DNA from: Patescibacteria group bacterium
Lineage (GTDB): Bacteria > Patescibacteriota > Minisyncoccia > 2-02-FULL-40-12 > GWA2-44-9
DNA length: 42,269 nt
NCBI GenBank assembly: GCA_038065335.1
Contig: JBBTRD010000013.1
Location: forward strand, 1 to 42,269
Reading direction: 5' to 3'
Shown piece after piece: positions 1-41,995 of this stretch. The notes under the pieces are model-generated. The model was not told where the DNA came from, did not search any database, and saw nothing but the letters and a program-made list of their open reading frames with translations. Every line of letters starts with the position of its first letter. The first letter of the stretch is position 1. A program made the position numbers and the translations under genes.

Positions 1-1
1 G

Positions 2-100
2 CATGGCCCGACAGGAGTGGCTTCGGGCGGTCAGAGAAATGAGAGATAATTTCTAGAAATGCTCCAAGAGGAAGCCGTGAGAAAAGTGTCAAGGCCGAGC
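2..100 (+). repeat. Copy 1 of a ~97-nt dispersed repeat (partner at 17908..18003, ~80% identical by eye); may continue left of the window
   Basis: Shared blocks CATGGCCCGACAGGAG, TCGGGCGGTCAGAGAAA, CTAGAAAT and CTCCAAGAGGAAGC. Both copies keep a GCCCGA/TCGGGC stem with a loop of variable length. Confidence 0.7.
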
Positions 101-4494: not shown

Positions 4495-5932
4495 AATATT
4501 TTTTGATTAAATTATTGAATTGCTCTCCCCGATCGTATTCGTTTTTAAATTTTTCAAAACTCTTGGAAGCCGGGGAAAATAGTATCACGGATTGAGGATA
4601 CTGACCAGCTTGCCCTGAACTCTGTTGAAGGGCTTTTTTGAAAGCCACTTCAACGCATTCTTGAAGCGAATCATAGATCGGGCAACTGGCCGCAAAATCA
4701 CCGAGGGCTAGTCGTATTTTTTCAGTCGCACTACCGGCCAGAAAAACAAGATTACTTGACTGAATAAATTGGGGAATAATTTTTCCTAATTCTACAAAAT
4801 CTAAATCCCGGTCTGTTCCGCCAGTGATGAGCACTGTCTCTAAACCGCCAAATCGCTTGAGGGCTTGAATAGCGCCTTCGGGCGAAGTGGCCGCAGTGTC
4901 GTTCACGACCGTAAGCGTATCGGTTTTTAGAATTATCTCTTGACGGAAAGGGATTTCGGGCAAACTATTAATCCGAAACTGAATGTCGGCCCAGGAACAT
5001 CCGGCCAGATGAGCTGAAAGAGCCGCCGCCAAAAGATTAGAGATATTGTGTTCACCGCGCATCAAAACAGAATCACTTAACATCAACGCTTTTTCTTTTA
5101 GACCCGCCTTTCGAAAATATACAGTTTTATCGCTTGACCAGACTCCATTAAGACCGACGGGCAAAATCTGACCAGAGAAATACCAAACCTTGGCCAATGG
5201 TTTTTGGGTTAATAAAAATTGGGTCCATTTGTTGTCATAATTCAGAATAAGATTATTGTCCGATGTCTGATATTTAAAAATATTTGCTTTTATTCGAGCG
5301 TATTCCTCTATAGTTTGATGACGATTAAGATGGTCTTGAAAAATATTAGTGATTACGGCTATTGCTGGGCCAGATATCGGCGTGCGGTCGAACAACTCTA
5401 AATGAAATGAGGAAATTTCGGCTACGGCCATTTCTAACCCGCCGGCCCGATCGAGAACTTTTAAAAATGGGTGAGTCAGCGAATTTCCGGCAATTGATGA
5501 TTTAAATTTCGGTTTAAGAAAATGTTCCACCCAAGTTGTTATGGTCGTCTTGCCTCGCGTTCCCGTGACCGCAATAATCGGCTTGTCCCGAGTTCCACCG
5601 AGAGACTTTTTAAACTCCTGAAAAAATATCGTCGCCTCATTGGCCACTTCTTTGCCCAGTTTAAACGCGTATTGAATAAATTCATTCCGAATTGAAACAT
5701 CGGGATTGATGACGATAATATCGTTTTCTTCGATATCTCGCATGGAATGACCGCCCAGACGCAATTCAACGTGGCCCTCGATTTTCCCCAACGAATCAGA
5801 GAGCTGTTCTTGAGTTTTTAAATCAGTTACCGTCACCCGCGCGCCCTGACGCAAAAGCCAATTCGTCGTCGCTAAACCGCCGCCCAGAATACCAAAACCG
5901 AACACGAGCACTTTTTTATCTTCAAAAATCAT
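4475..5932 (-). CDS. murD: UDP-N-acetylmuramoylalanine--D-glutamate ligase
   Basis: 485 aa with an N-terminal Rossmann GFGILGGG, the Mur ligase P-loop TGTRGKTT, and the motifs NDTAATSPEG and HNISNLLAA. Confidence 0.9.
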   Translation of the reverse strand: MIFEDKKVLVFGFGILGGGLATTNWLLRQGARVTVTDLKTQEQLSDSLGKIEGHVELRLGGHSMRDIEENDIIVINPDVSIRNEFIQYAFKLGKEVANEATIFFQEFKKSLGGTRDKPIIAVTGTRGKTTITTWVEHFLKPKFKSSIAGNSLTHPFLKVLDRAGGLEMAVAEISSFHLELFDRTPISGPAIAVITNIFQDHLNRHQTIEEYARIKANIFKYQTSDNNLILNYDNKWTQFLLTQKPLAKVWYFSGQILPVGLNGVWSSDKTVYFRKAGLKEKALMLSDSVLMRGEHNISNLLAAALSAHLAGCSWADIQFRINSLPEIPFRQEIILKTDTLTVVNDTAATSPEGAIQALKRFGGLETVLITGGTDRDLDFVELGKIIPQFIQSSNLVFLAGSATEKIRLALGDFAASCPIYDSLQECVEVAFKKALQQSSGQAGQYPQSVILFSPASKSFEKFKNEYDRGEQFNNLIKKYFESNPN

Positions 5933-5975: not shown

Positions 5976-6875
5976 TTAGACCGACATATTGCGAAGGATT
6001 TTGATTCTTTCTTCCAGAGGCGGATGGGTCATAAATAAACGAGTAAACCAACTGGCCCCTTCTTTGCCCTTAAACGGGTTGGAGATAAAGAGATGAGCGG
6101 TTGAGTTTGAGGCCATCTTCATAGGTTGTTGGTCTTCGGCGATACGTTCAAGGGCGTTAGCCAGACCTTCGGGATAACGCGTCAAAAGAGCGCCGGAAGC
6201 ATCGGCCAAAAATTCGCGTTTACGCGAAACGGCCAGCTGGATCATGGTCGCGGCAATTGGCGCCAGAATTGCGGCCACGAGAGCCACGGCCATGACCAGT
6301 GCCCCGCCGTTGCCTTCTCTGTCCCGATCCCGGCCGCCGAAAAAACTAATCCGAATAAAAAAATTAGCGAGAATGGAAATCAGTCCCGCCAACACCACCG
6401 TTACTGAAGAAACAAGAATGTCGTTATTGCCAACGTGTGAAAGTTCGTGCGCCAAAACGCCTTCCAGTTCGATTTTATCTAATCGATCAAGAGCGCCTTG
6501 AGTAACAGCAATGGCCGAATGTTCTTTATTGCGTCCCGTCGCAAACGCATTGATTTGCCTATCTGGAATTAAGTAAATCCGAGGCATCGGCAAACCGGCC
6601 GTGATGCAAAGGTTTTCAATAATTCGATATATTTCTTCGTGACCCGTTCGCGCAATCGGTCGAGCGTGAGACATCGCCAGCGCAATTGAGTCCGATTTCC
6701 AATAAGCCATAAAGTTCATCCCTACCGAAAGCGCCACGGCAATATATAAAATATCCGGTGAACCATAGGCCTGACTAAACAAAAACCCTACCGCGATAAT
6801 CAACACGAAAAACACGGTCATCAATAACCACGTCTTCCGAATATTAGTATCATGTTGAGTATAAAGGGTGGCCAT
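5976..6875 (-). CDS. htpX: Zinc metalloprotease HtpX (M48 family)
   Basis: 299 aa with multiple TM segments, the HEXXH motif HELSHVGNNDI and C-terminal THPPLEERI. Confidence 0.9.
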   Translation of the reverse strand: MATLYTQHDTNIRKTWLLMTVFFVLIIAVGFLFSQAYGSPDILYIAVALSVGMNFMAYWKSDSIALAMSHARPIARTGHEEIYRIIENLCITAGLPMPRIYLIPDRQINAFATGRNKEHSAIAVTQGALDRLDKIELEGVLAHELSHVGNNDILVSSVTVVLAGLISILANFFIRISFFGGRDRDREGNGGALVMAVALVAAILAPIAATMIQLAVSRKREFLADASGALLTRYPEGLANALERIAEDQQPMKMASNSTAHLFISNPFKGKEGASWFTRLFMTHPPLEERIKILRNMSV

Positions 6876-6880
6876 ACTTA

Positions 6881-6985
6881 AACTGGGAACCTGCTCTTTT
6901 GCCCAGACCCGGGGAACCAGTTCCGTCGGTTCCCCCGCTACGCGGGTCCCCCTCCGCTACTGGGCCAAAGAGCAGGTTCCCAGTT
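6881..6985 (+). repeat. GC-rich palindromic element, copy A (family also at 11713..11824 and 23826..23923)
   Basis: Conserved core GCCCAGACCCGGGGAACCAGTTCCGTCGGTTCCCC...CCCCTCCGCTACTGGGC, flanked by copy-specific self-complementary arms AACTGGGAACCTGCTCTTT / AAAGAGCAGGTTCCCAGTT. It fills the lemA-htpX spacer. Confidence 0.85.
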
Positions 6986-6989
6986 ACGT

Positions 6990-7541
6990 TTAAAATTTAA
7001 CCTCCGGTAATTTTGCCTCTTCGGCAGAGCCCAGTTGGAAGAGTTCTTCTTTACTAAATCCGAGGGAGGAAGCAATCAGGTTGGTGGGAAAGACTTCCAA
7101 CTTGGTGTTAAAGTCCATCACGTTAGTATTGTAGAAACGACGAGAGGCTTGAATCTTGTCTTCGGTGTCGGTCAGTTCATCCTGTAATTTCATGAAGTTT
7201 TCGTTGGCCTTGAGAGTGGGATAGGCTTCCGAGAGAGCGAAGAGTTTGCCAAGCGCGCCAGAAAGCGTGTTTTCGGCTTGGCCTTTTTGGGCCAGACTGC
7301 CAGCCGCAACGGCTTCGGTGCGCGCTTTGGTCACAGCTTCGAGCACACCGGCTTCGTGCGCGACATAGCCTTTGACGGTCTCCACAAGATTAGGAATCAA
7401 ATCGTGCCGACGCCGAAGTTGGACGTTAATATCCGACCACGCTTCTTTAACCCGATTCCGCGCCCGCACTAAACCGTTAAACGCACCGACAACCCAAAGC
7501 ACCACGACCACCACAATCGCCAAAATGATATATGTAGCCAT
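6990..7541 (-). CDS. lemA: LemA family membrane protein
   Basis: 183 aa with an N-terminal TM segment and the family signature NRVKEAWSDINVQLRRRHDLIPNLVETVKGY. The lemA-htpX pairing is common. Confidence 0.85.
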   Translation of the reverse strand: MATYIILAIVVVVVLWVVGAFNGLVRARNRVKEAWSDINVQLRRRHDLIPNLVETVKGYVAHEAGVLEAVTKARTEAVAAGSLAQKGQAENTLSGALGKLFALSEAYPTLKANENFMKLQDELTDTEDKIQASRRFYNTNVMDFNTKLEVFPTNLIASSLGFSKEELFQLGSAEEAKLPEVKF

Positions 7542-11249: not shown

Positions 11250-11264
11250 AACAAAAATAATACA

Positions 11265-11299
11265 TTTATATTTTAATACGATCGTATTATTTCATAAAG
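11265..11299. promoter_or_regulatory. Palindromic site, copy 1 of 3 (core AATACGATCGTATT at 11275..11288)
   Basis: TTTATATTTTAATACGATCGTATTATTTCATAAAG differs at 3 positions from the identical 34-mers at 27609..27642 and 28203..28237. It lies between the divergent NTase gene and uvrC. Confidence 0.7.
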
Positions 11300-11344: not shown

Positions 11345-12841
11345 TTGTCCTACCAAATGCTCGCTAACCAGCTCCGACAACTTATCGCCAAAACACCGGA
11401 TGCGCCGGGGATTTATTGTTTTCAGAACGAACATAAAAAAGATATCTACATTGGTAAAGCGTCTTCGATCAAGAAGCGATTAGTTTCATATACAAAGACG
11501 ACCGACCCACGGATTCAGAAGATGATTGCCGTGGCCGAACGCTTGACCCACATTAAAACCAACTCGGACATTGAAGCCTTGATATTGGAATCTCAACTTA
11601 TTAAACAACATCGTCCCCAGTTCAATATCATGCTCCGCGATGACAAACAGTATTTCTTCGTGGGTTTTACCGATACAGAATTTCCAAGACTCTTTTTAAC
11701 ACATCAACCCGAGTTGGCTGGCGACCTGCTCTTTGGCCCAGTAGCGGAGGGGGACCCGCGAAGCAGGGGAACCGACGGGACTGGTTCCCCGGGTCTGGGC
11801 AAAAGAGCACGGTCGCCAGCCAACTACATTGGGCCATTTACAGATGGGGCTGCATTGAAAACAACTTTGAAATTTTTGCGTAATATTTTTCCTTATTGCA
11901 CTTGTACCCAGAAGCACCACAATTTTTGTTTGAATTATCACTTAAACAAATGTATTGGTTTTTGTTGTATCAAAAACCCGGAATTACGGATTACGGATTA
12001 CGGATTAAAAAAAGTGAAAAAACAATATAACCAAAACACAAATGCTATTAAAGATATTTTGAGTGGTCACCATTCTTCGGTGATTAAAGAACTGAAAAAA
12101 GAAATGACCGCGACCGGTAAAAAACATGACTTCGATAACGCAATCGAATTACGATCCAAGCTCGAGCGTCTGAAGCGAGTTTTCCACAATGCTCAAATTA
12201 TTAAACATTCTGAAATCCTAAAATCATACAATTCTGGCCTGTCCGCGTTATTAAAAACGAAAAAACCAATTATTCATATTGAGGGTTATGACGTTTCCAA
12301 TATTCAAGGCGCCCACGCCACTGGCGCGATGGTCACGTTCGTTAACGGCCTCCCCGACAAAAATTTCTACCGCAAATTTAATACCCAATACAACAAGCCT
12401 AAAAATAATAAAGATGATAAAAACAAACTATTGCTAAATTCTTACGATCGTAAGAATTTAGCAAACAGCGCGAATGACACCGCCATGCTTGCCCAAATCC
12501 TTGAACGTCGCTTTAGGCATCCTGAATGGCCGTTCCCTGATTTGATATTAGTGGATGGCGGCAAGGGCCAAGTCAGTTCCGCGCTCACCGTTCTTAAAGA
12601 AATGAATATCTCTATTCCCGTAATCGGCCTCTCTAAAAACAAAAAACACATGGGTCATCAACTAATAATCCCCGGGCGCAAACAACCCCTCTCGCTCACC
12701 AAACTTAGTATCACCGATAAAAACTTACTGCTAACCATTGGCGCCGAAGCTCACCGTTTCGCCATAAGCTATTATCGAAAGCTTCACCGGTTGAATCTTT
12801 CTACTCAAAATGATATCATTAAAAACACTGGAAATGCTTAG
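11345..12841 (+). CDS. uvrC: Excinuclease ABC subunit C, short form without the C-terminal (HhH)2 domain, carrying an in-frame repeat insertion
   Basis: GIY-YIG motifs (PGIYCF...IYIGKA), a Cys-rich segment and the endonuclease-domain motifs IEGYDVSNIQG and LILVDGGKGQ. The protein ends shortly after AEAHRFAISYYRKLHR. The track start is TTG 11345; the first ATG is at 11357. Confidence 0.85.
   Translation: MSYQMLANQLRQLIAKTPDAPGIYCFQNEHKKDIYIGKASSIKKRLVSYTKTTDPRIQKMIAVAERLTHIKTNSDIEALILESQLIKQHRPQFNIMLRDDKQYFFVGFTDTEFPRLFLTHQPELAGDLLFGPVAEGDPRSRGTDGTGSPGLGKRARSPANYIGPFTDGAALKTTLKFLRNIFPYCTCTQKHHNFCLNYHLNKCIGFCCIKNPELRITDYGLKKVKKQYNQNTNAIKDILSGHHSSVIKELKKEMTATGKKHDFDNAIELRSKLERLKRVFHNAQIIKHSEILKSYNSGLSALLKTKKPIIHIEGYDVSNIQGAHATGAMVTFVNGLPDKNFYRKFNTQYNKPKNNKDDKNKLLLNSYDRKNLANSANDTAMLAQILERRFRHPEWPFPDLILVDGGKGQVSSALTVLKEMNISIPVIGLSKNKKHMGHQLIIPGRKQPLSLTKLSITDKNLLLTIGAEAHRFAISYYRKLHRLNLSTQNDIIKNTGNA
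11713..11824 (-). repeat. GC-rich palindromic element, copy B, inverted relative to A and C and inserted in frame in uvrC
   Basis: Its reverse complement matches the copy A core at most positions by eye. Self-complementary arms GTTGGCTGGCGACCTGCTCTTT / AAAGAGCACGGTCGCCAGCCAAC. It is translated as ...ELAGDLLFGPVAEGDPRSRGTDGTGSPGLGKRARSP... Confidence 0.85.
11983..12007 (+). repeat. Tandem heptamer (ATTACGG) x 3.6 inside uvrC
   Basis: GGAATTACGGATTACGGATTACGGATTAAAA encodes ELRITDYGLKK. Confidence 0.8.
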
Positions 12842-13183: not shown

Positions 13184-13337
13184 TATTAACTGAGTTAACT
13201 TTTGTCCATAGCGAGACGTCTCGCAGGCCCCGAGGCTTGGCGCTCGGCGAGGGGCCGAGAGTCGAGATGACGCCGAGCCGCAGGAGCGAGGCGATTATCG
13301 GTCGAGTCTTGGATGAAAGTTAGCTCAGTTAATACCA
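13184..13337. repeat. ~150-nt foldback element: AT-rich inverted arms around a GC-rich core
   Basis: Arms TTAACTGAGTTAACTTTTGTCCA (13186..13208) and TGGATGAAAGTTAGCTCAGTTAA (13310..13332). The core contains GCGAGACGTCTCGC and several CCGAG/CTCGG stems. No ORF of 60 aa or more. Confidence 0.7.
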
Positions 13338-19046: not shown

Positions 19047-19140
19047 CGACGAGCTTGTCGAAATACTAGTTCTTTGTAGAAAATCGAGACAATACGCATA
19101 ATTAACATATGTAACTTTAAAATAAGCTCGTACGAAACAA

Positions 19141-19677
19141 TTATAAAGTAAAGTATTTTATTAATTCTAATTTTTTAAACCCGACATCCTCAGCAGTAAT
19201 AATATCAACGTAATCTGAAATATCCAATTGCTCACAAATATCTCCAATTTCTTCGTGACAAGGATAAGGTAAAACGAAAACACTTTTTTGTAACATAAAA
19301 AACCCTAAATTTTTTAATTTTTTTCGAAATTTTATTCTTGCTAAATGTAACTCTTGAGGAATATCAAAAATTACTAATCGCCATTTTTTGTCCCATATTA
19401 GATAACGTCTTGGAAAATACCTACTAATAGCTCCTCGGGCCCATACAGATCCGTTTTGAGTAAGTTTAAATCGGCCCGGACTAACGTCTTTAAGCAGGCC
19501 TCGATATTTCAAGTTATAGACATTCTGATAAATCACATCTGGATCAATTCCGGCCATTCTTAAATCTTTATAATGCCAAGATTCACGAGCAAACATCTTA
19601 AATGGAGTATTTTTAAGATCTAAAGCTTCTAAAAAAGTGATAATAAATTTTTTAGATTTGTTAAGTTTGTTACCCAT
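19141..19677 (-). CDS. PaaX-like regulator: N-terminal wHTH plus a Cas2/VapD-like ferredoxin-fold domain (paralog 1)
   Basis: WDKKWRLVIFDIPQELHLARIKFRKKLKNLGFFMLQKSVFVLPYP matches the PaaX/Cas2-type beta-alpha-beta core. Paralogous to 27643..28194. Confidence 0.7.
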   Translation of the reverse strand: MGNKLNKSKKFIITFLEALDLKNTPFKMFARESWHYKDLRMAGIDPDVIYQNVYNLKYRGLLKDVSPGRFKLTQNGSVWARGAISRYFPRRYLIWDKKWRLVIFDIPQELHLARIKFRKKLKNLGFFMLQKSVFVLPYPCHEEIGDICEQLDISDYVDIITAEDVGFKKLELIKYFTL

Positions 19678-19682
19678 ACATA

Positions 19683-19726
19683 TAATACTTTATTATAGAC
19701 TCGTACGAGTCTATAATAAAGTATTA
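19683..19726. promoter_or_regulatory. 44-nt perfect palindrome immediately upstream of PaaX-like paralog 1 (candidate operator)
   Basis: TAATACTTTATTATAGACTCGTACGAGTCTATAATAAAGTATTA, checked base by base, 6 nt from the start codon. Confidence 0.7.
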
Positions 19727-19782
19727 GTTTTTATTAATCAAGTTGATAAGTTCGGATGATATTATTAATTACAAAAAGAATG

Positions 19783-22381: not shown

Positions 22382-22504
22382 ACCCCGCCGTTGGGAAACT
22401 GCGTGATTTTTTAAATTTAAATCAATTTTAATTATTAAGACATACAAAAAATACTGGATACCTCTATGAGTTTTCCAGAAAACTCAGTTTCCCAACGGCG
22501 GGGT
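22382..22504. repeat. 20-bp perfect inverted repeat with an 83-nt AT-rich spacer; same CCCCGCCGTTG base as 21610..21666
   Basis: ACCCCGCCGTTGGGAAACTG (22382..22401) pairs with CAGTTTCCCAACGGCGGGGT (22485..22504). Confidence 0.8.
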
Positions 22505-23295: not shown

Positions 23296-23826
23296 GTGAA
23301 TTTAAATAAAGTCATTCTTATTGGTCGATTGACCCAAGATCCAGAAGCTCGGACCACCCCGAGCGGTCAGAACGTTACGACGGTCAATATGGCCACTAAC
23401 CGCGTTTGGACCGACGCCACAAGCGGTCGCAAAGAAGCCACGGAGTTTCATCGCGTTGTCGCTTGGGGAAAACTGGGCGATATCGCTTCCAAATATCTCA
23501 CCAAGGGTGGTCTCGTCATGATTGAGGGTCGATTACAGACCCGCTCTTGGGATGACAAAGAAACAGGCAAGAAACGCTACATGACCGAAATCATCGCCGA
23601 GAATCTTCAGATGGGTCCTCGAGCAGCCGGAACAGCCCCAGTTGCCTCATTTGAGCCGGGCTCATATAGACATCCGATTGAAAACACAAATTCTTCTTCA
23701 GTTAAACAATCCCCGGCTGAACATACTGTTGAACCGGAAATCCCCATCATTGATGAAAATGAACCCCTGAATGCTGGCGTCGAAGAGGACGAAATAGCAA
23801 TAAAAGAAAAAGATCTGCCGTTTTAG
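23296..23826 (+). CDS. ssb: Single-stranded DNA-binding protein
   Basis: GTG start, the OB-fold N-terminus NKVILIGRLTQDPE...FHRVVAWGKLGD, and an acidic tail ending DLPF. Confidence 0.9.
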   Translation: MNLNKVILIGRLTQDPEARTTPSGQNVTTVNMATNRVWTDATSGRKEATEFHRVVAWGKLGDIASKYLTKGGLVMIEGRLQTRSWDDKETGKKRYMTEIIAENLQMGPRAAGTAPVASFEPGSYRHPIENTNSSSVKQSPAEHTVEPEIPIIDENEPLNAGVEEDEIAIKEKDLPF

Positions 23827-23923
23827 TTGGAATCGTCCCTTCGCCCCAGACCCGGGGAACCAGTCCCGTCGGTTCCCCCAGAGGGGCCCCCTCCGCTACT
23901 GGGGCTTAAGGGACAATTCCAAC
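23826..23923 (+). repeat. GC-rich palindromic element, copy C (ssb-rpsR spacer)
   Basis: Core GCCCCAGACCCGGGGAACCAGTCCCGTCGGTTCCCCCAGAGGGGCCCCCTCCGCTACTGGGGC with the copy-specific arms GTTGGAATCGTCCC / GGGACAATTCCAAC. Confidence 0.85.
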
Positions 23924-23953: not shown

Positions 23954-24163
23954 ATGCATTGCAAATTATGCGAAGAAAATATTAGCCACATTGACTACAA
24001 GAATACTAAGTTTTTGCGCTCTTATGTGACCGCTCAATTTAAAATCAGCACCTCTCGACGCAACGAACTCTGCGCTAAACACCAGCGCATGATTGCCAAC
24101 GCCATCAAACTCGCCCGCTTCATGGTCCTCATACCCTACACAAGAAATCAAACTGTAAGATAG
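23954..24163 (+). CDS. rpsR: 30S ribosomal protein S18
   Basis: 69 aa with IDYKNTKFLRSYVT...KISTSRRNELCAKHQRMIANAIKLARFMVLIPY. Confidence 0.85.
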   Translation: MHCKLCEENISHIDYKNTKFLRSYVTAQFKISTSRRNELCAKHQRMIANAIKLARFMVLIPYTRNQTVR

Positions 24164-27549: not shown

Positions 27550-27608
27550 AATGCTAATTATTCCTTATTTATAATTCAAAATCAATACCCATATCACCCA
27601 TATCCCTA

Positions 27609-27642
27609 TTTATATATTAATACGATCGTATTGTTTTATAAA
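27609..27642. promoter_or_regulatory. Palindromic site, copy 2 of 3 (core 27619..27632), abutting the stop of PaaX-like paralog 2 and upstream of ftsK
   Basis: TTTATATATTAATACGATCGTATTGTTTTATAAA is identical over 34 nt to 28203..28236. Confidence 0.75.
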
Positions 27643-28194
27643 TCAAACCTTGAACTTTATTTTCAAATCTTTATCGTAATCCATGTGGTCTATTGTTACA
27701 AATCTTGTGTGTTGTTTTATATTTTCTTCAAACAATAAATCTTTTAGAAATACGGGAATTGGGTAGGGATATATCCAGGCACTCTTTTGAAATTCTTTAA
27801 AACCGATAGCCCGTAAAATTAGTCGCAGATAATCTCGATGTTTTCGTTTTTTCTCGGGAATATCAAAAAATACTAACCGCCATTTGCCATCCCATTTTAT
27901 TTTTTCTTTTTTATATATACCAGTTTCAGCGTTTATATAAGCAAAAAATGCTTCTTTTTTACCTTGGTCAGTAAGATAATATAGACTATTTTTTCTTTCA
28001 ATTAACTTATTTTTCCGTAAATTGCATAAGGCAACATCGTAAGTGATTCTTCGTCTTCCGTAACAATATTTACGGGCATATTTGTGAGGAAAGAACACCC
28101 GCGCTGGTCCTTCTTGAATGCTCCATAAAATTGCCAAAATAGTTCTGGGCACAGAAAGAAGTATTTTCGCACTTTTGGCATTGTTTCCGAACAT
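27643..28194 (-). CDS. PaaX-like regulator: wHTH plus Cas2/VapD-like domain (paralog 2)
   Basis: WDGKWRLVFFDIPEKKRKHRDYLRLILRAIGFKEFQKSAWIYPYP. Same architecture as 19141..19677. Confidence 0.7.
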   Translation of the reverse strand: MFGNNAKSAKILLSVPRTILAILWSIQEGPARVFFPHKYARKYCYGRRRITYDVALCNLRKNKLIERKNSLYYLTDQGKKEAFFAYINAETGIYKKEKIKWDGKWRLVFFDIPEKKRKHRDYLRLILRAIGFKEFQKSAWIYPYPIPVFLKDLLFEENIKQHTRFVTIDHMDYDKDLKIKFKV

Positions 28195-28202
28195 ATAGTC
28201 TC

Positions 28203-28237
28203 TTTATATATTAATACGATCGTATTGTTTTATAAAG
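28203..28237. promoter_or_regulatory. Palindromic site, copy 3 of 3 (core 28213..28226), 9 nt upstream of the paralog 2 start
   Basis: TTTATATATTAATACGATCGTATTGTTTTATAAAG is positioned as an autoregulatory operator or promoter. Confidence 0.75.
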
Positions 28238-28271: not shown

Positions 28272-28303
28272 TATAAAAAGAAAACGGCGTCCGAAGACGC
28301 CGT
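28272..28303 (-). terminator. Rho-independent terminator closing the GC-rich island transcript
   Basis: Minus strand reads ACGGCGTC-TTCG-GACGCCGT followed by TTTTCTTTTT. Confidence 0.8.
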
Positions 28304-28507
28304 GGAAGTGGTTGGGGGTTGGTTTGCGGCTGTATCCCCCGGGGTCGCCAGCCTGTAGCCTACCTGTGCGCCGAGACTTCCCGCTCGGCGATTGATGGTT
28401 CAACTACGCATTTAGTTTCCTTCTGCTTTTCAGGCAAGAAAGAGTTGGTCTCCGTCGCGGATCACCTTTCGGCTTAACCCGCGACATGCCCCTCCGAGGC
28501 CAATCAA

Positions 28508-28744
28508 CTATCGACCGTGAAACGCCGTGACGCGCGGATCGAGCCGCGAGTCGCTGTCGGCCGCCGCCCCGACGATCCAGGCCCGGTAATTCCACCGCGC
28601 CGCCGTAACGGGTTTGATGCCCCGACGGGCCAACTGAGCTTTGGCCTGCCTCAGCGTCTCGACCTGGGTCTGTTCCCAGGTAGTCGCCGGTTTGATCCCG
28701 GCAACCATGAGCGCCGGCTTTGCGAAATCGAAGATGGTGGGCAT
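28508..28744 (-). CDS. Hypothetical 78-aa protein encoded in a high-GC island
   Basis: ATG at 28744 preceded by AGGAGA 6 nt upstream. By hand count 62 of 78 codons end in G/C against about 55% G/C at position 2, a coding-like gradient. The track ORF 28508..28807 includes a 5' extension that I do not believe. Confidence 0.5.
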   Translation of the reverse strand: MPTIFDFAKPALMVAGIKPATTWEQTQVETLRQAKAQLARRGIKPVTAARWNYRAWIVGAAADSDSRLDPRVTAFHGR

Positions 28745-36388: not shown

Positions 36389-36561
36389 AATTTTTTAATT
36401 TCTAAATTCTAATGCCTAAATCCTAAATAAATCCCAATTACCGAATTCCAAAAAAGTCAGAGATGGACTCTCCTAATGAACTACTAAAATTTTGTTTGAT
36501 AGTCAGGTATAATTATTACCCCCCTTTTAAACCAATTTTGTTTTAGGAAGGTTGTGGATTG

Positions 36562-38557: not shown

Positions 38558-39055
38558 TTATTTTCTATTTACTTTTGACCTAACCCAATCTAAATACACT
38601 ATCTTTGAATTTGTTCTTTTTAGAAGTACCGAACAGCGATTGCTTGGTGATAGAATCGCCAAAAGTTTATTCTTTTCTTGAAGAAACTTTATGAGACTCG
38701 CGTAATCGCCATCACTTGAAACAACTACCGCTTTATCAAATTTACTTTCGTAGGTGTCGCGTGCAACTTGCAAGACAAGATCAGCGTCGCAATTACCTTT
38801 CACTTTACCATTTCCATCATAGGTTGTTTCCTTAAAGACCAGAGTAAAACCAACTTCCTGAAGATAGGTATAAAGATCTTTATACCGTGGAACTAATCCA
38901 ATAAAAAGATAAGAGCGTTTAATCTGATATTTATTGTTGAGCCATAATCGAAAACGTTTATAATCCAGCTTCCACCCCAAATCAGCTATGCCCTTGTGTA
39001 AATTAGCTCCGTCAATATATGCAAAATTATTTTTGCTTTTTTGGATTTCGAGCAT
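38558..39055 (-). CDS. NYN (LabA/DUF88-like) domain protein
   Basis: 165 aa with AYIDGANLHKG near the N-terminus and VVVSSDGDYASLIKFL, which are typical NYN/PIN-like acidic motifs. Confidence 0.8.
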   Translation of the reverse strand: MLEIQKSKNNFAYIDGANLHKGIADLGWKLDYKRFRLWLNNKYQIKRSYLFIGLVPRYKDLYTYLQEVGFTLVFKETTYDGNGKVKGNCDADLVLQVARDTYESKFDKAVVVSSDGDYASLIKFLQEKNKLLAILSPSNRCSVLLKRTNSKIVYLDWVRSKVNRK

Positions 39056-39107
39056 TGGAATTTGTTTAGAAATTAGGATTTAGAAATTAGAAATTCCGTT
39101 ATGGATT

Positions 39108-41356: not shown

Positions 41357-41451
41357 ACCAATTCAACCTTTCTGGCCGTAAGTCGGCCGTTATAAGTGCT
41401 GGAAAGATACTACCATATTAAGATTTTTTGTAAAACACAAAAACCAGTGAT

Positions 41452-41569
41452 CTGGCGGCACCCCGCCTGCTGGCTTGGGCATTTCGTCGCCTTCGCTCCT
41501 CAACTACCAACTTCTAAATACCGCACCTTCAGTGCTAGGGCGCCGAACGGCGAAAGTAGGCATCCGCCA
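41452..41569 (-). ncRNA. 5S-length (~118 nt) unit with 5S-type termini but a non-5S interior
   Basis: Minus strand starts TTGGCGGATGCC and ends GGTGCCGCCAG, followed by the same ATCACTGGTTTTTGTGT tail as the outer 5S. It contains AGCGAAGGCGACGAAATGCCC, which resembles the outer 5S. Confidence 0.3.
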
Positions 41570-41597
41570 ACTGGTTTTTGTGTACACAAAAACCAGT
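41570..41597. terminator. 28-nt perfect palindrome directly after the outer 5S 3' end
   Basis: ACTGGTTTTTGTGTACACAAAAACCAGT, checked base by base. It is the centre of a 73-nt inverted repeat (41549..41621). Confidence 0.6.
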
Positions 41598-41600
41598 GAT

Positions 41601-41995
41601 CTGGCGGCTACCTACTTTCGCCGGATGAGTCCGACTATCATGGGCCTTAAAGGATTTCGTCCCGCACTAAAACAAGCATATGCCACTTCATGCTTCCGCA
41701 TGAGGCATAACAGAGGATGCTTGTTTGGTGTCGGGACTTCGCTTCTGAGCCTACCCCGCACCGAATGAACAACCAGTCATAATCACTGTAGGGCAGCTAC
41801 CTACTTTCGCCGGATGAGTCCGACTATCATGGGCTCCGCGAGATTTCACTTCTGAGTTCGGGATGGGATCAGGTGGAGCACTCGCGACATAGCTACCTTA
41901 CACTAACTACGACACTAACTTTGTTCATTCTGGTGCGGGGTTCGGTCCGCCAACTGGCGGAGGGATCAGGTGGATTATCTAAAGATAGCCACCAA
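41601..41995 (-). rRNA. Outer 5S-like gene interrupted by three hairpin insertions, one of which carries a complete 5S
   Basis: 5' half GGTGGCTATCTTTAGATAATCCACCTGATCCC..CCGAAC and 3' half CTCAGAAGCGAAG..GAAATCCTTTAAGGCCCATGATAGTCGGACTCATCCGGCGAAAGTAGGTAGCCGCCAG. Helices I and II are compensated relative to the inner copy. Confidence 0.5.
41786..41903 (-). rRNA. rrf: 5S ribosomal RNA (canonical, inner copy)
   Basis: Minus strand reads GGTAGCTATGTCGCGAGTGCTCCACCTGATCCCATCCCGAACTCAGAAGTGAAATCTCGCGGAGCCCATGATAGTCGGACTCATCCGGCGAAAGTAGGTAGCTGCC. The termini pair as helix I. Confidence 0.88.

What the first reader, a model, noticed from the sequence alone, without database searches (positions are those of the whole stretch)
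11713..11824. GC-rich palindromic repeat inserted in frame in uvrC (RPE-like selfish DNA in a housekeeping gene)
uvrC stays open across a ~110-nt segment whose reverse complement matches the intergenic elements at 6881..6985 and 23826..23923; the ~65-nt core GCCCAGACCCGGGGAACCAGTCCCGTCGGTTCCCC...GGGTCCCCCTCCGCTACTGGGC is near-identical by eye. It is translated as ELAGDLLFGPVAEGDPRSRGTDGTGSPGLGKRARSP. It sits between the end of the GIY-YIG domain (FPRLFLTHQP) and the conserved Y(I/F)GPF motif, where other UvrC proteins have only a few residues. The known analogue is the Rickettsia palindromic element, which inserts in frame into protein genes. I do not know of an equivalent described for CPR-type genomes. 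GC content and amino-acid composition (G/P/R/S-rich) both differ sharply from the rest of the protein.
Basis: partly seen in the sequence, partly recalled or inferred. Interest (0 to 1): 0.78.

Follow-up and report, generated by a model that had tools for sequence, protein, structure and literature searches.

The report
In-frame palindromic repeat inside uvrC
A 112-base, GC-rich, hairpin-forming repeat that also lies between genes is read through in frame inside the DNA-repair gene uvrC of a Patescibacteria (CPR) genome; relatives carry the same DNA element at the same spot in either orientation and several reading frames, and its core recurs in repeats of Aminicenantes.

Summary
Window 11712-11825 is a 114-nt imperfect palindrome inside an intact uvrC ORF. 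It is the reverse complement of the intergenic copies at 6881-6985 (lemA|htpX spacer) and 23826-23923 (ssb|rpsR spacer). Its GC is 0.68 against 0.40 for the rest of the gene.

The RPE-like reading is supported, with three changes:
- The insert is not private to this genome. At least 17 uvrC orthologues of one Yanofskybacteria-related clade carry the same DNA element at the same linker, in both orientations and four frame states. So DNA and structure are conserved, not the peptide. All are open except one contig, which is broken by a single extra G.
- The conserved part is the centre, not the ends. It is an asymmetric three-way junction with an invariant 25-mer hairpin, a covarying second hairpin and the motif CCTCCGCTA. 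The long arms change sequence but stay complementary.
- The same core occurs in at least 119 loci of Aminicenantes and of MAGs labelled Elusimicrobia, Desulfaltia and Clostridiales/Eubacteriales. There it sits inside MITE-like repeats of about 210 bp.

No transposase, target duplication, strand bias, Rfam family, phage copy or plasmid copy was found. The best reading is a non-autonomous, DNA-level palindromic element translated as a disordered loop. How it moves is unknown.

The parts
11345..12841 (+). uvrC ORF (GIY-YIG domain, Cys-rich middle region, RNase H-like endonuclease domain). It is intact across the element. The deposited protein P0001 starts at the ATG four codons in.
11712..11825 (-). 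Whole palindromic element inside uvrC, copy 2. The conserved core reads in its reference ('S') sense on the minus strand, so the uvrC mRNA carries its reverse complement. Translated as (E)LAGDLLFGPVAEGDPRSRGTDGTGSPGLGKRARSPAN(Y).
11712..11741 (.). 5' arm of the long stem (AGTTGGCTGGCGACCTGCTCTTTGGCCCAG). It pairs with 11795-11825.
11742..11754 (-). Junction strand TAGCGGAGGGGGA. This is the reverse complement of the nearly invariant TCCCCCTCCGCTA motif.
11755..11767 (-). P3, the variable second hairpin (CCYGC-TWC-GCGGG in CPR copies). It covaries between copies.
11766..11790 (-). P2, the invariant 25-mer hairpin GGGGAACC-AGTCCCGTC-GGTTCCCC.
11795..11825 (.). 3' arm of the long stem (CTGGGCAAAAGAGCACGGTCGCCAGCCAACT).
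6881..6985 (+). Copy 1. It fills the spacer between the lemA stop (gene 6990-7541, minus strand) and the htpX/M48 start (gene 5976-6875, minus strand). Core 25-mer at 6911-6935. 84% identical overall to the uvrC copy.
23826..23923 (+). Copy 3. It lies between the ssb stop (gene 23296-23826) and rpsR (gene 23954-24163). Core 25-mer at 23854-23878.

Best explanation
The segment is a copy of a small, non-autonomous, hairpin-forming DNA repeat, of the same broad kind as MITEs, REPINs and Rickettsia palindromic elements. It sits in the flexible linker between the GIY-YIG nuclease domain and the rest of UvrC.

It is transcribed and translated as part of UvrC and adds about 35 residues rich in G, P, S and R that form a disordered surface loop. 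It is tolerated for three reasons: the linker is permissive, five of the element's six reading frames have no stop codon, and only copies whose length keeps the frame survive.

The copy probably entered uvrC in an ancestor of a Yanofskybacteria-related clade. Since then:
- its arms have drifted while staying complementary;
- its centre has been kept, or repeatedly overwritten from sister copies in the same genome;
- the centre has been turned around in some lineages by recombination between the inverted arms, which leaves the length and the downstream frame unchanged.

The invariant asymmetric centre (P2 hairpin plus CCTCCGCTA) is most likely what a trans-acting enzyme recognises on folded DNA in order to copy or move the element. 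That enzyme has not been identified.

Shown:
- the repeat family and its structure;
- covariation in the stems;
- read-through at the ORF level;
- presence at orthologous sites in several frames and both orientations;
- no strand bias.

Inferred:
- mobility;
- inversion and gene conversion;
- recognition of the centre by an enzyme;
- no benefit to the host.
For: Repeat family:
- 3 copies in 42 kb against 0 expected by chance.
- At least 119 further loci hold the exact 25-mer.

Structure:
- Fold z-scores are -6 to -9.
- The outer stems have a median of 38 bp in 92 copies.
- P3 forms a simple hairpin in 96 of 101 copies, with 39 different stems.
- P2 shows paired changes: GGGGAACC/GGTTCCCC to GGGGGACC/GGTCCCCC and GGAAACC/GGTTTC in L193.

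DNA level rather than an oriented RNA:
- G-T wobble pairs in the arms are equally frequent on both strands (206 against 232).
- Flanking-gene orientation is unbiased: 20, 18, 18 and 12 copies in the four arrangements.
- CPR copies occur in both senses relative to transcription.

Non-autonomous:
- No protein family recurs next to the copies among 1590 ORFs.
- The window holds no transposase.

Translated:
- All 7 distinct element-bearing uvrC loci found at DNA level by tblastn are in frame and free of stops.
- So are L192, L193 and L194.
- 13 of the 120 best orthologues carry the element in four frame/orientation states.
- P0006 changes frame twice inside the element and so avoids the one stop-containing frame.
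- The linker is exactly 195 nt in six loci, whatever the orientation.
- Close relatives show in-frame deletions of 24 nt (P0131) and 90 nt (L123).

Disordered loop: residues 120-159 have pLDDT below 50 and no secondary structure.

Turnover or conversion:
- The uvrC copy is 84% identical to the lemA|htpX copy of its own genome, but 74-78% to orthologous uvrC copies.
- The lemA|htpX copies of two close relatives (LemA 91% identical) are only 72% alike and have opposite orientation.
- The same spacer is empty in the syntenic locus L193.
Against: - No target-site duplication, no parent element with a transposase and no insertion caught in progress was seen.
- The ends vary and the centre is conserved, the reverse of a classical MITE.
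- Copies persist at orthologous sites (the uvrC linker, the lemA|htpX spacer). A host function could explain that equally well.
- Orientation never differs within clusters of at least 90% identity, so inversion is at best rare.
- One contig (L197) has uvrC split by an extra G in a G-run inside the element. Read-through is therefore not universal, unless that G is a sequencing or assembly error.
- No transcript or peptide data exist.
Confidence: 0.6

Rival explanations
1. Re-insertion at a hot spot. The uvrC copies of different lineages are independent insertions, or replacements, at one preferred target, for example the tip of a pre-existing palindrome. They do not descend from a single ancestral insertion. 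This changes the history, not the nature of the element.
For: - Presence is patchy within one clade, and sister lineages differ in orientation.
- The same linker holds unrelated hairpin inserts in other orthologues: L135, L133, the 'TSGAC...' family and AT-rich inserts.
- The lemA|htpX spacer likewise holds this element, other hairpin elements, a 23S_rRNA_IVP gene, or nothing.
- In Aminicenantes copies the P3 loop hosts nested small palindromic inserts.
- The lemA|htpX copies of close relatives have unrelated arms.
Against: - The linker length of exactly 195 nt is shared by both orientations, whereas free copies differ in length (98, 105 and 114 nt).
- The outermost arm sequences are shared between S- and A-oriented sister copies: GTCAGC...CTGAC in L120 and L192, TTGGC...GCCAA in the window and L139.
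- The flanks share no target motif.
Confidence: 0.3
2. Host-selected structured nucleic acid. The hairpin is kept because it does something for the cell at RNA level, for example as an RNase III or RNase J processing site, an mRNA stabiliser, or a brake on translation of the downstream cistron or of uvrC itself.
For: - The secondary structure is strongly conserved, with compensatory changes.
- Copies are retained at orthologous positions.
- All six intergenic CPR copies lie in tight spacers between co-directional genes: lemA|htpX (twice), ssb|rpsR, mraY|ftsW, pheS|gyrB.
- A perfect stem of at least 25 bp is a plausible RNase III substrate (my own knowledge, not tested).
Against: - Both orientations occur at the same locus.
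- There is no orientation bias relative to flanking genes in 68 scorable Aminicenantes copies.
- There is no G-U strand asymmetry.
- No Rfam family matches, even at E up to 10.
- The spacer is empty in a syntenic relative.
Confidence: 0.12
3. Intragenic invertible segment ('inverton'). The inverted arms are recombination sites, and the core flips within populations, so that UvrC is made with two alternative linkers.
For: - Inverted repeats flank an asymmetric segment inside a CDS.
- Both orientations exist at the same site with identical total length, and both are open.
- Recoding intragenic invertons are documented in Bacteroides (bioRxiv 10.1101/2023.03.11.532203).
Against: - In four clusters of at least 90% identity with 2-6 members each, orientation and frame are fixed.
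- No recombinase gene lies nearby.
- The recoded peptide is a disordered linker with no evident functional difference.
- No read-level data are available.
Confidence: 0.07
4. The segment is removed before or during translation (intron-like excision, intein, or ribosomal bypass), or it is an assembly artefact.
For: - The very stable hairpin would bring the two flanks together.
- Assemblies do break or mis-join at the element: an N-gap in L195, a chimeric contig end in L196, contig ends in L184.
Against: - The frame and the absence of stops are maintained in at least 17 orthologues and four frame states. Selection would not enforce this on a removed segment.
- There are no intein or intron hallmarks and no Rfam hit.
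- The same insert is found in independent assemblies from NCBI, ENA and JGI.
Confidence: 0.03

Closest known systems
Rickettsia palindromic elements (RPE; Ogata et al. 2000, as summarised in review PMC10969869)
   Same: - Palindromic repeats of about 100-150 bp, dispersed in a small genome.
- Found both between genes and in frame inside unrelated housekeeping genes.
- Compatible with the fold of the host protein.
- No transposase of their own.
   Different: - According to the review, each RPE encodes a conserved peptide. Here the same DNA is read in four frame/orientation states at one site, so there is no conserved peptide.
- Only one host gene (uvrC) was seen here; RPEs integrated 44 times in R. 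conorii, nearly half of them inside genes.
- The conserved part is an asymmetric three-way centre.
- The core is shared across phyla.
- Sequence relatedness to RPE families was not tested.
REPINs / REP sequences mobilised by RAYT transposases (PMC3116915; bioRxiv 10.1101/2021.07.10.451892)
   Same: - Hairpin-forming non-autonomous repeats of about 100 nt.
- Compensatory changes keep the stem.
- Predicted to fold in ssDNA or mRNA.
- Long vertical persistence.
- No target duplication.
   Different: - REPINs are symmetric doublets of a conserved REP, with a less conserved spacer in the middle. Here the middle is conserved and asymmetric, and the arms vary.
- REPs are almost wholly extragenic: 14 of 1,067 16-mers overlap genes in SBW25.
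- No RAYT gene was found or could be looked for genome-wide.
Bacterial MITEs (Correia, ERIC, BOX and others; review PMC10969869)
   Same: - Small and multi-copy, with inverted arms and no coding capacity.
- Occasional in-frame fusions with host ORFs.
- In Aminicenantes the core sits in units of about 210 bp with subfamily-specific terminal inverted repeats.
   Different: - No target-site duplication was seen.
- No parent IS with matching ends was found.
- The termini differ between subfamilies, while the centre is invariant.
Recoding intragenic invertons (bioRxiv 10.1101/2023.03.11.532203)
   Same: A segment flanked by inverted repeats inside a gene, with both orientations open and coding different peptides.
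   Different: The orientations differ between lineages, not (so far) within a population. No invertase is known. The element is a dispersed repeat that is also found outside genes.

Membership tests
Rickettsia palindromic elements (RPE) | Palindromic repeat of about 100-150 bp, present in many copies in the genome | tested here: met
   98-114 nt, 3 copies in 42 kb, fold z-scores -6 to -9
Rickettsia palindromic elements (RPE) | In-frame insertion into protein-coding genes without disrupting them | tested here: met
   uvrC is open across the element here and in at least 17 orthologues. Only one host gene was seen.
Rickettsia palindromic elements (RPE) | Copies encode a conserved peptide (consistent frame), and sequences belong to the RPE-1..10 families of Rickettsia | tested here: not met
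   The same site is read as GTDGTGSP, GDRRDWSP, GKPTGLV or GEPVPSVP. The host is Patescibacteria. Similarity to RPE consensus sequences was not tested, because no RPE library was at hand.
MITE | Small non-coding unit with terminal inverted repeats | tested here: met
   Arms have a median of 38 bp. Aminicenantes subfamily b has ends CTAATA...TATTAG.
MITE | Target-site duplication flanking each copy | tested here: not met
   No direct repeat is visible at the ends of the CPR copies or of 9 aligned subfamily-b copies. This is only partly conclusive, since a filled/empty pair was available for one locus only.
MITE | A related autonomous IS with the same ends | tested here: inconclusive
   No recurrent neighbouring ORF. 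TIR-like hits far from a core were few and mostly at locus edges. Whole genomes could not be scanned.
REPIN / REP-RAYT | Two inverted, highly conserved REP units around a less conserved spacer, forming a hairpin | tested here: not met
   The hairpin is present, but the conserved part is a single asymmetric centre and the arms vary.
REPIN / REP-RAYT | A cognate single-copy RAYT (Y1/HUH) transposase in the genome | not testable with these tools
   Only 42 kb of the source genome and fragments of 20 kb or less of others were available. None was seen in them.
Intragenic inverton | Both orientations coexist in one population (read-level evidence) and a site-specific invertase is present | tested here: inconclusive
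   Orientation is fixed within clusters of at least 90% identity. No recombinase in the window. No reads available.
Any described structured RNA (Rfam 15) | Match to a covariance model | tested here: not met
   No hit at gathering score in the window or in 16 loci. At E up to 10 there were only microRNA-hairpin noise hits.

The most novel reading that the evidence does not exclude
The invariant asymmetric centre is a three-way junction: the P2 25-mer, a covarying P3 that accepts nested inserts, and the unpaired CCTCCGCTA strand. In this reading it is the functional module of a class of mobile or invertible elements that are defined by their centre rather than their ends. A hairpin-specific enzyme, not yet identified, would recognise it on folded DNA in phyla as far apart as Patescibacteria, Acidobacteriota (Aminicenantes) and Elusimicrobia.

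In that case the uvrC copies would be genuine intragenic flip or conversion cassettes. The core shared between CPR bacteria and Aminicenantes would record direct DNA exchange between an episymbiont and a candidate host lineage.
Probability: 0.15. Interest if true: 0.8.

Novelty: new variant of a known kind. Interest (0 to 1): 0.6.

Why it matters
In-frame 'selfish' palindromes have been documented mainly in Rickettsia. Finding the same behaviour in a CPR/Patescibacteria genome shows that highly reduced genomes of a quite different lineage also absorb repeats into essential genes.

It also helps explain the many short lineage-specific inserts seen in CPR proteins. The same UvrC alignment shows several other insert families and a second palindrome.

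The case is unusually informative. One orthologous site holds the same DNA in both orientations and several frames, which separates selection on DNA structure from selection on the peptide.

The centre-conserved, arm-variable design and the core shared across phyla point to a recognition mechanism that is not yet known. They could also serve as a marker of gene flow between CPR bacteria and Aminicenantes.

In practice, these elements break and mis-join metagenome assemblies and can split gene calls.

Tried and rejected
- Rfam at gathering score on the window and on 16 loci, and at E up to 10 on the element: only tRNA/rRNA hits and microRNA-hairpin noise.
- RNAalifold on a MAFFT alignment of 78 copies recovered only P2, because the variable arms were not aligned in register. 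I replaced it with per-copy folding and stem tabulation.
A chimeric 149-aa query made of all six frame translations found nothing, with only 42 word candidates. So I could not count in-frame copies in other proteins.
- An exact scan of viral contigs and a blastn search of plasmids with the core found no match.
- Clustering of the ORFs neighbouring the copies gave no recurrent family.
- A search for subfamily end sequences away from cores gave nothing convincing.
- Comparing arms in the two orientations, to decide between in-situ inversion and re-insertion, was not decisive, because the arms are too palindromic.
- A full-text search for the core sequence and two keyword searches timed out. A search for 'miniature inverted-repeat' plus 'Candidate Phyla Radiation' found one irrelevant paper. 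The literature check for CPR is therefore weak.
- Ideas considered and dropped on sequence grounds:
  - Integron attC site: the copies are dispersed rather than arrayed, and the R'/R'' motifs are absent.
  - Hammerhead, twister or HDV-like ribozymes: no core motifs and no Rfam hit.
  - Intein or intron: the frame is conserved.
Full report
**Observation.** The window encodes an uninterrupted uvrC (11345..12841, +, 498 aa), whose translation contains ELAGDLLFGPVAEGDPRSRGTDGTGSPGLGKRARSPAN.
- Repeats: 11718-11814 is 93% complementary over 97 nt to 6887-6983, and 11766-11799 is 100% complementary to 23845-23878.
- Chance: the 25-mer GGGGAACCAGTCCCGTCGGTTCCCC occurs three times, against 0.00 expected.
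- Alignment: aligned, the three copies show a common core and diverging flanks.
- Folding: each copy folds into a long stem capped by a three-way junction with two small hairpins. RNA z-scores are -6.3 to -8.7. For the uvrC copy as DNA, the energy is -48 kcal/mol and z is -9.4.
- Extent and composition: by pairing, the uvrC hairpin spans 11712-11825. Its GC is 0.679 against 0.401 for the rest of the gene.
- Position: Pfam finds GIY-YIG at residues 21-91 and the UvrC RNase H-like domain at 302-474. PDB chains cover residues 8-103 and 376-483. The insert lies just after the nuclease domain.

**Genomic setting.** The closest protein in the database is annotated as from a Patescibacteria MAG, and the next relatives are Candidatus Yanofskybacteria.
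- Copy 1 fills the spacer between lemA and an M48/htpX peptidase gene.
- Copy 3 lies between ssb and rpsR.
- The window holds no transposase or recombinase.
- Relative to transcription, copies 1 and 2 are in one sense and copy 3 in the other.

**The insert in orthologues.** Some aligned orthologues have a linker of only 2-10 residues between LTHQP and [YF]IGPFTDG. Many orthologues of 61-72% identity carry an insert of about 37 residues at exactly this place, with different peptides:
- GTDGTGSP (the window, P0003)
- GDRRDWSP (P0004, P0005, P0008, P0011)
- GKPTGLV (P0006)
- GEPVPSVPPLRGSPS (P0002, P0010, P0014, P0015, P0023, P0034)

Six-frame translation of the element shows that these are three frames of one strand and one frame of the other. 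The DNA confirms this: L120, L122, L125, L129, L139, L160, L192, L193 and L194 all carry the same element at this site, in either orientation. So the nucleotide sequence and its structure are conserved, not the peptide.

Thirteen of the 120 best orthologues carry the element. All fall in one clade, interspersed with orthologues that lack it. L139, at only 47% UvrC identity, also has it.

**Is it read through?** A tblastn-based scan does not depend on gene calls, and it found seven distinct element-bearing uvrC loci. All are in frame and free of stops, and so are the three loci fetched later.
- In six loci the distance between the RDDKQY and GPFTDG anchors is exactly 195 nt, whatever the orientation.
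- Five of the six frames of the consensus are open. The sixth contains TAG, and P0006 changes frame twice inside the element and so avoids it.
- Close relatives show in-frame deletions: 24 nt removing exactly the P2 hairpin (P0131), and 90 nt leaving only the 3' arm (L123).
- One exception exists. In contig L197 uvrC is split into two ORFs by one extra G in a G-run inside the element. This is either an error or real slippage.
- AlphaFold2 with the orthologue alignment gives pLDDT below 50 and no secondary structure for residues 120-159, between two confidently modelled strands.

Together these results argue that the segment is translated as a disordered loop and is not removed.

- Most are from Aminicenantes MAGs, including a 4.28-Mb chromosome. 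Others are labelled Elusimicrobia, Desulfaltia and Clostridiales/Eubacteriales, and two are Yanofskybacteria MAGs.
- Some 'Eubacteriales' MAGs share repeat subfamilies with Aminicenantes MAGs, so those labels may be unreliable.
- Individual assemblies hold at least 11-19 copies.
- The shared part is GCCCCCG..CCCC, then the 25-mer hairpin (P2), then a second hairpin (P3), then (G/T)CCCCCCTCCGCTA(C/T)GGGGGC.
- P3 is a simple hairpin in 96 of 101 copies, with 39 different stems, and it can hold nested inserts of more than 100 nt.
- P2 shows paired changes in uvrC copies.
- Outside the core, the arms differ between subfamilies and between CPR copies but remain complementary, with a median of 38 bp.
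- In Aminicenantes subfamily b the whole unit is about 210 bp, ends CTAATA...TATTAG, and has no visible target duplication.

**DNA or RNA?**
- G-T wobble pairs in the arms are equally frequent on both strands (206 against 232).
- Flanking-gene arrangements are unbiased (20, 18, 18 and 12 copies).
- CPR copies occur in both senses.
- No Rfam family matches.

This argues against an oriented RNA gene or UTR element. It fits a DNA-level palindrome that can fold on either strand.

**Mobility and turnover.**
- No protein family recurs next to the copies. No copies were found in viral contigs or plasmids.
- Within the window genome, the uvrC and lemA|htpX copies are 84% identical. That is more than the uvrC copy shares with orthologous uvrC copies (74-78%).
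- The lemA|htpX copies of two close relatives (LemA 91% identical) are only 72% alike and inverted.
- The same spacer is empty (21 nt) in the syntenic locus L193. In other relatives it holds other hairpin elements, a 23S_rRNA_IVP gene, or only a short hairpin.
- The uvrC linker also holds unrelated hairpin inserts in other orthologues.

These sites are therefore either permissive or preferred, and the copies turn over or are homogenised within genomes. The constant 195-nt linker and the shared outermost arm motifs favour one old uvrC insertion, followed by inversion or conversion. Repeated insertion cannot be excluded. Orientation is stable within clusters of at least 90% identity.

**Comparison with known systems.**
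- Behaviour: in-frame palindromes in housekeeping genes match the Rickettsia palindromic elements and other MITE-ORF fusions reviewed in PMC10969869.
- Evolution: the hairpin with compensatory changes and long persistence resembles REPINs (PMC3116915; bioRxiv 10.1101/2021.07.10.451892).
- Both orientations open within a gene resembles recoding intragenic invertons (bioRxiv 10.1101/2023.03.11.532203).

The element fails or leaves open defining features of each:
- no conserved peptide (RPE);
- no target duplication and no parent IS (MITE);
- no symmetric REP doublet and no RAYT found (REPIN);
- no within-population heterogeneity and no invertase (inverton).

I therefore file it as a new variant of the small palindromic repeat kind, not as a member of any named family.

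**Verdict.** This is a real, in-frame, multi-copy palindromic element. The RPE-like interpretation is supported. It is extended by the multi-frame, two-orientation orthologous copies, the centre-conserved architecture and the core shared across phyla. The mechanism of spread is unknown, and so is any host function.

Noticed in passing
window 12431-12464: A perfect 34-nt palindrome, TTGCTAAATTCTTACGATCGTAAGAATTTAGCAA, lies inside uvrC. It is translated LLLNSYDRKNLAN and sits within a second low-confidence insert (residues about 350-375). It is loosely related (70%) to the intergenic TAATACGATCGTATT repeats. uvrC may therefore carry a second in-frame palindromic insert; P0007 has a similar LLNKYDRINLA stretch at the same place.
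   Followed up: partly
window 19105-19738 and 27606-28236: Two small genes with a PaaX_M/Cas2-like domain (19141-19677 and 27643-28194, minus strand) are each bracketed by AT-rich repeats of 37-61 nt with a palindromic ACGATCGT or CTCGTACGAG centre. These are repeat families D1 and D4. Further D1 copies lie at 11262-11298 and 4530-4550. The arrangement looks like small cassettes.
   Followed up: no
window 13184-13334; 22382-22504; 36397-36456 with 39036-39095: There are other long inverted repeats. One is a 147-nt hairpin with 23-25-bp arms and a GC-rich interior between the holin-like gene and secG (DNA fold z -6.2). Another is a 123-nt hairpin upstream of rpsF (z -8.2). A third is a 60-nt inverted repeat pair bracketing the 36562-38346 gene and a NYN-domain gene.
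   Followed up: partly
window 28280-28720: An ORF-poor stretch with GC up to 0.78, in a window that averages 45% GC. It has no Rfam match. It could be an unrecognised structured RNA or more repeat DNA.
   Followed up: no
window 41435-41900: Short duplicated pieces lie around the 5S rRNA gene (41788-41900): 41435-41459 = 41584-41608 (100% identical), and 41603-41645 is 98% identical to 41792-41834. This suggests a partial 5S duplication downstream of the 23S end.
   Followed up: no
UvrC linker in orthologues L135:905-1035, L133, and proteins P0036/P0043/P0054/P0073/P0102: The same UvrC linker hosts unrelated inserts in other CPR lineages. L135/P0113 has a different long hairpin (DNA fold z -5.3). 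L133/P0099 has heptamer-repeat DNA. Five proteins share a 'TSGACPSSPRTGSV...TRATPRL' insert. Several others have AT-rich 'SKFKILNS'-type inserts. This linker is a general hot spot for insertions.
   Followed up: partly
L127:2085-2275, L165:95-275, L143:595-805, L194:4816-5231: In relatives, the lemA|htpX spacer holds other long-hairpin elements. L127 and L165 share a second family. In L194 the spacer holds a 23S_rRNA_IVP gene bracketed by inverted GCGAATAGCCAATAG repeats. It is empty (21 nt) in L193.
   Followed up: partly
L195:1460-1535, L196:1-90, L197:400-700, L184 contig end: Metagenome assemblies break, leave N-gaps or mis-join at the element. In L197 uvrC is split into 143-aa and 313-aa ORFs by one extra G in a G6 run of the element.
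   Followed up: yes
L020, L076, L078, L081, L101 (about 110-nt insert) and L023, L061, L114 (about 125-nt insert), inside the P3 loop: Aminicenantes copies carry nested small palindromic inserts exactly in the loop of the second hairpin. The two nested families each recur in several copies.
   Followed up: partly
L017:2292-5750: gyrB of the Yanofskybacteria MAG is 1152 aa long, with an intein-like insertion. The element copy lies immediately upstream, between pheS and gyrB.
   Followed up: no
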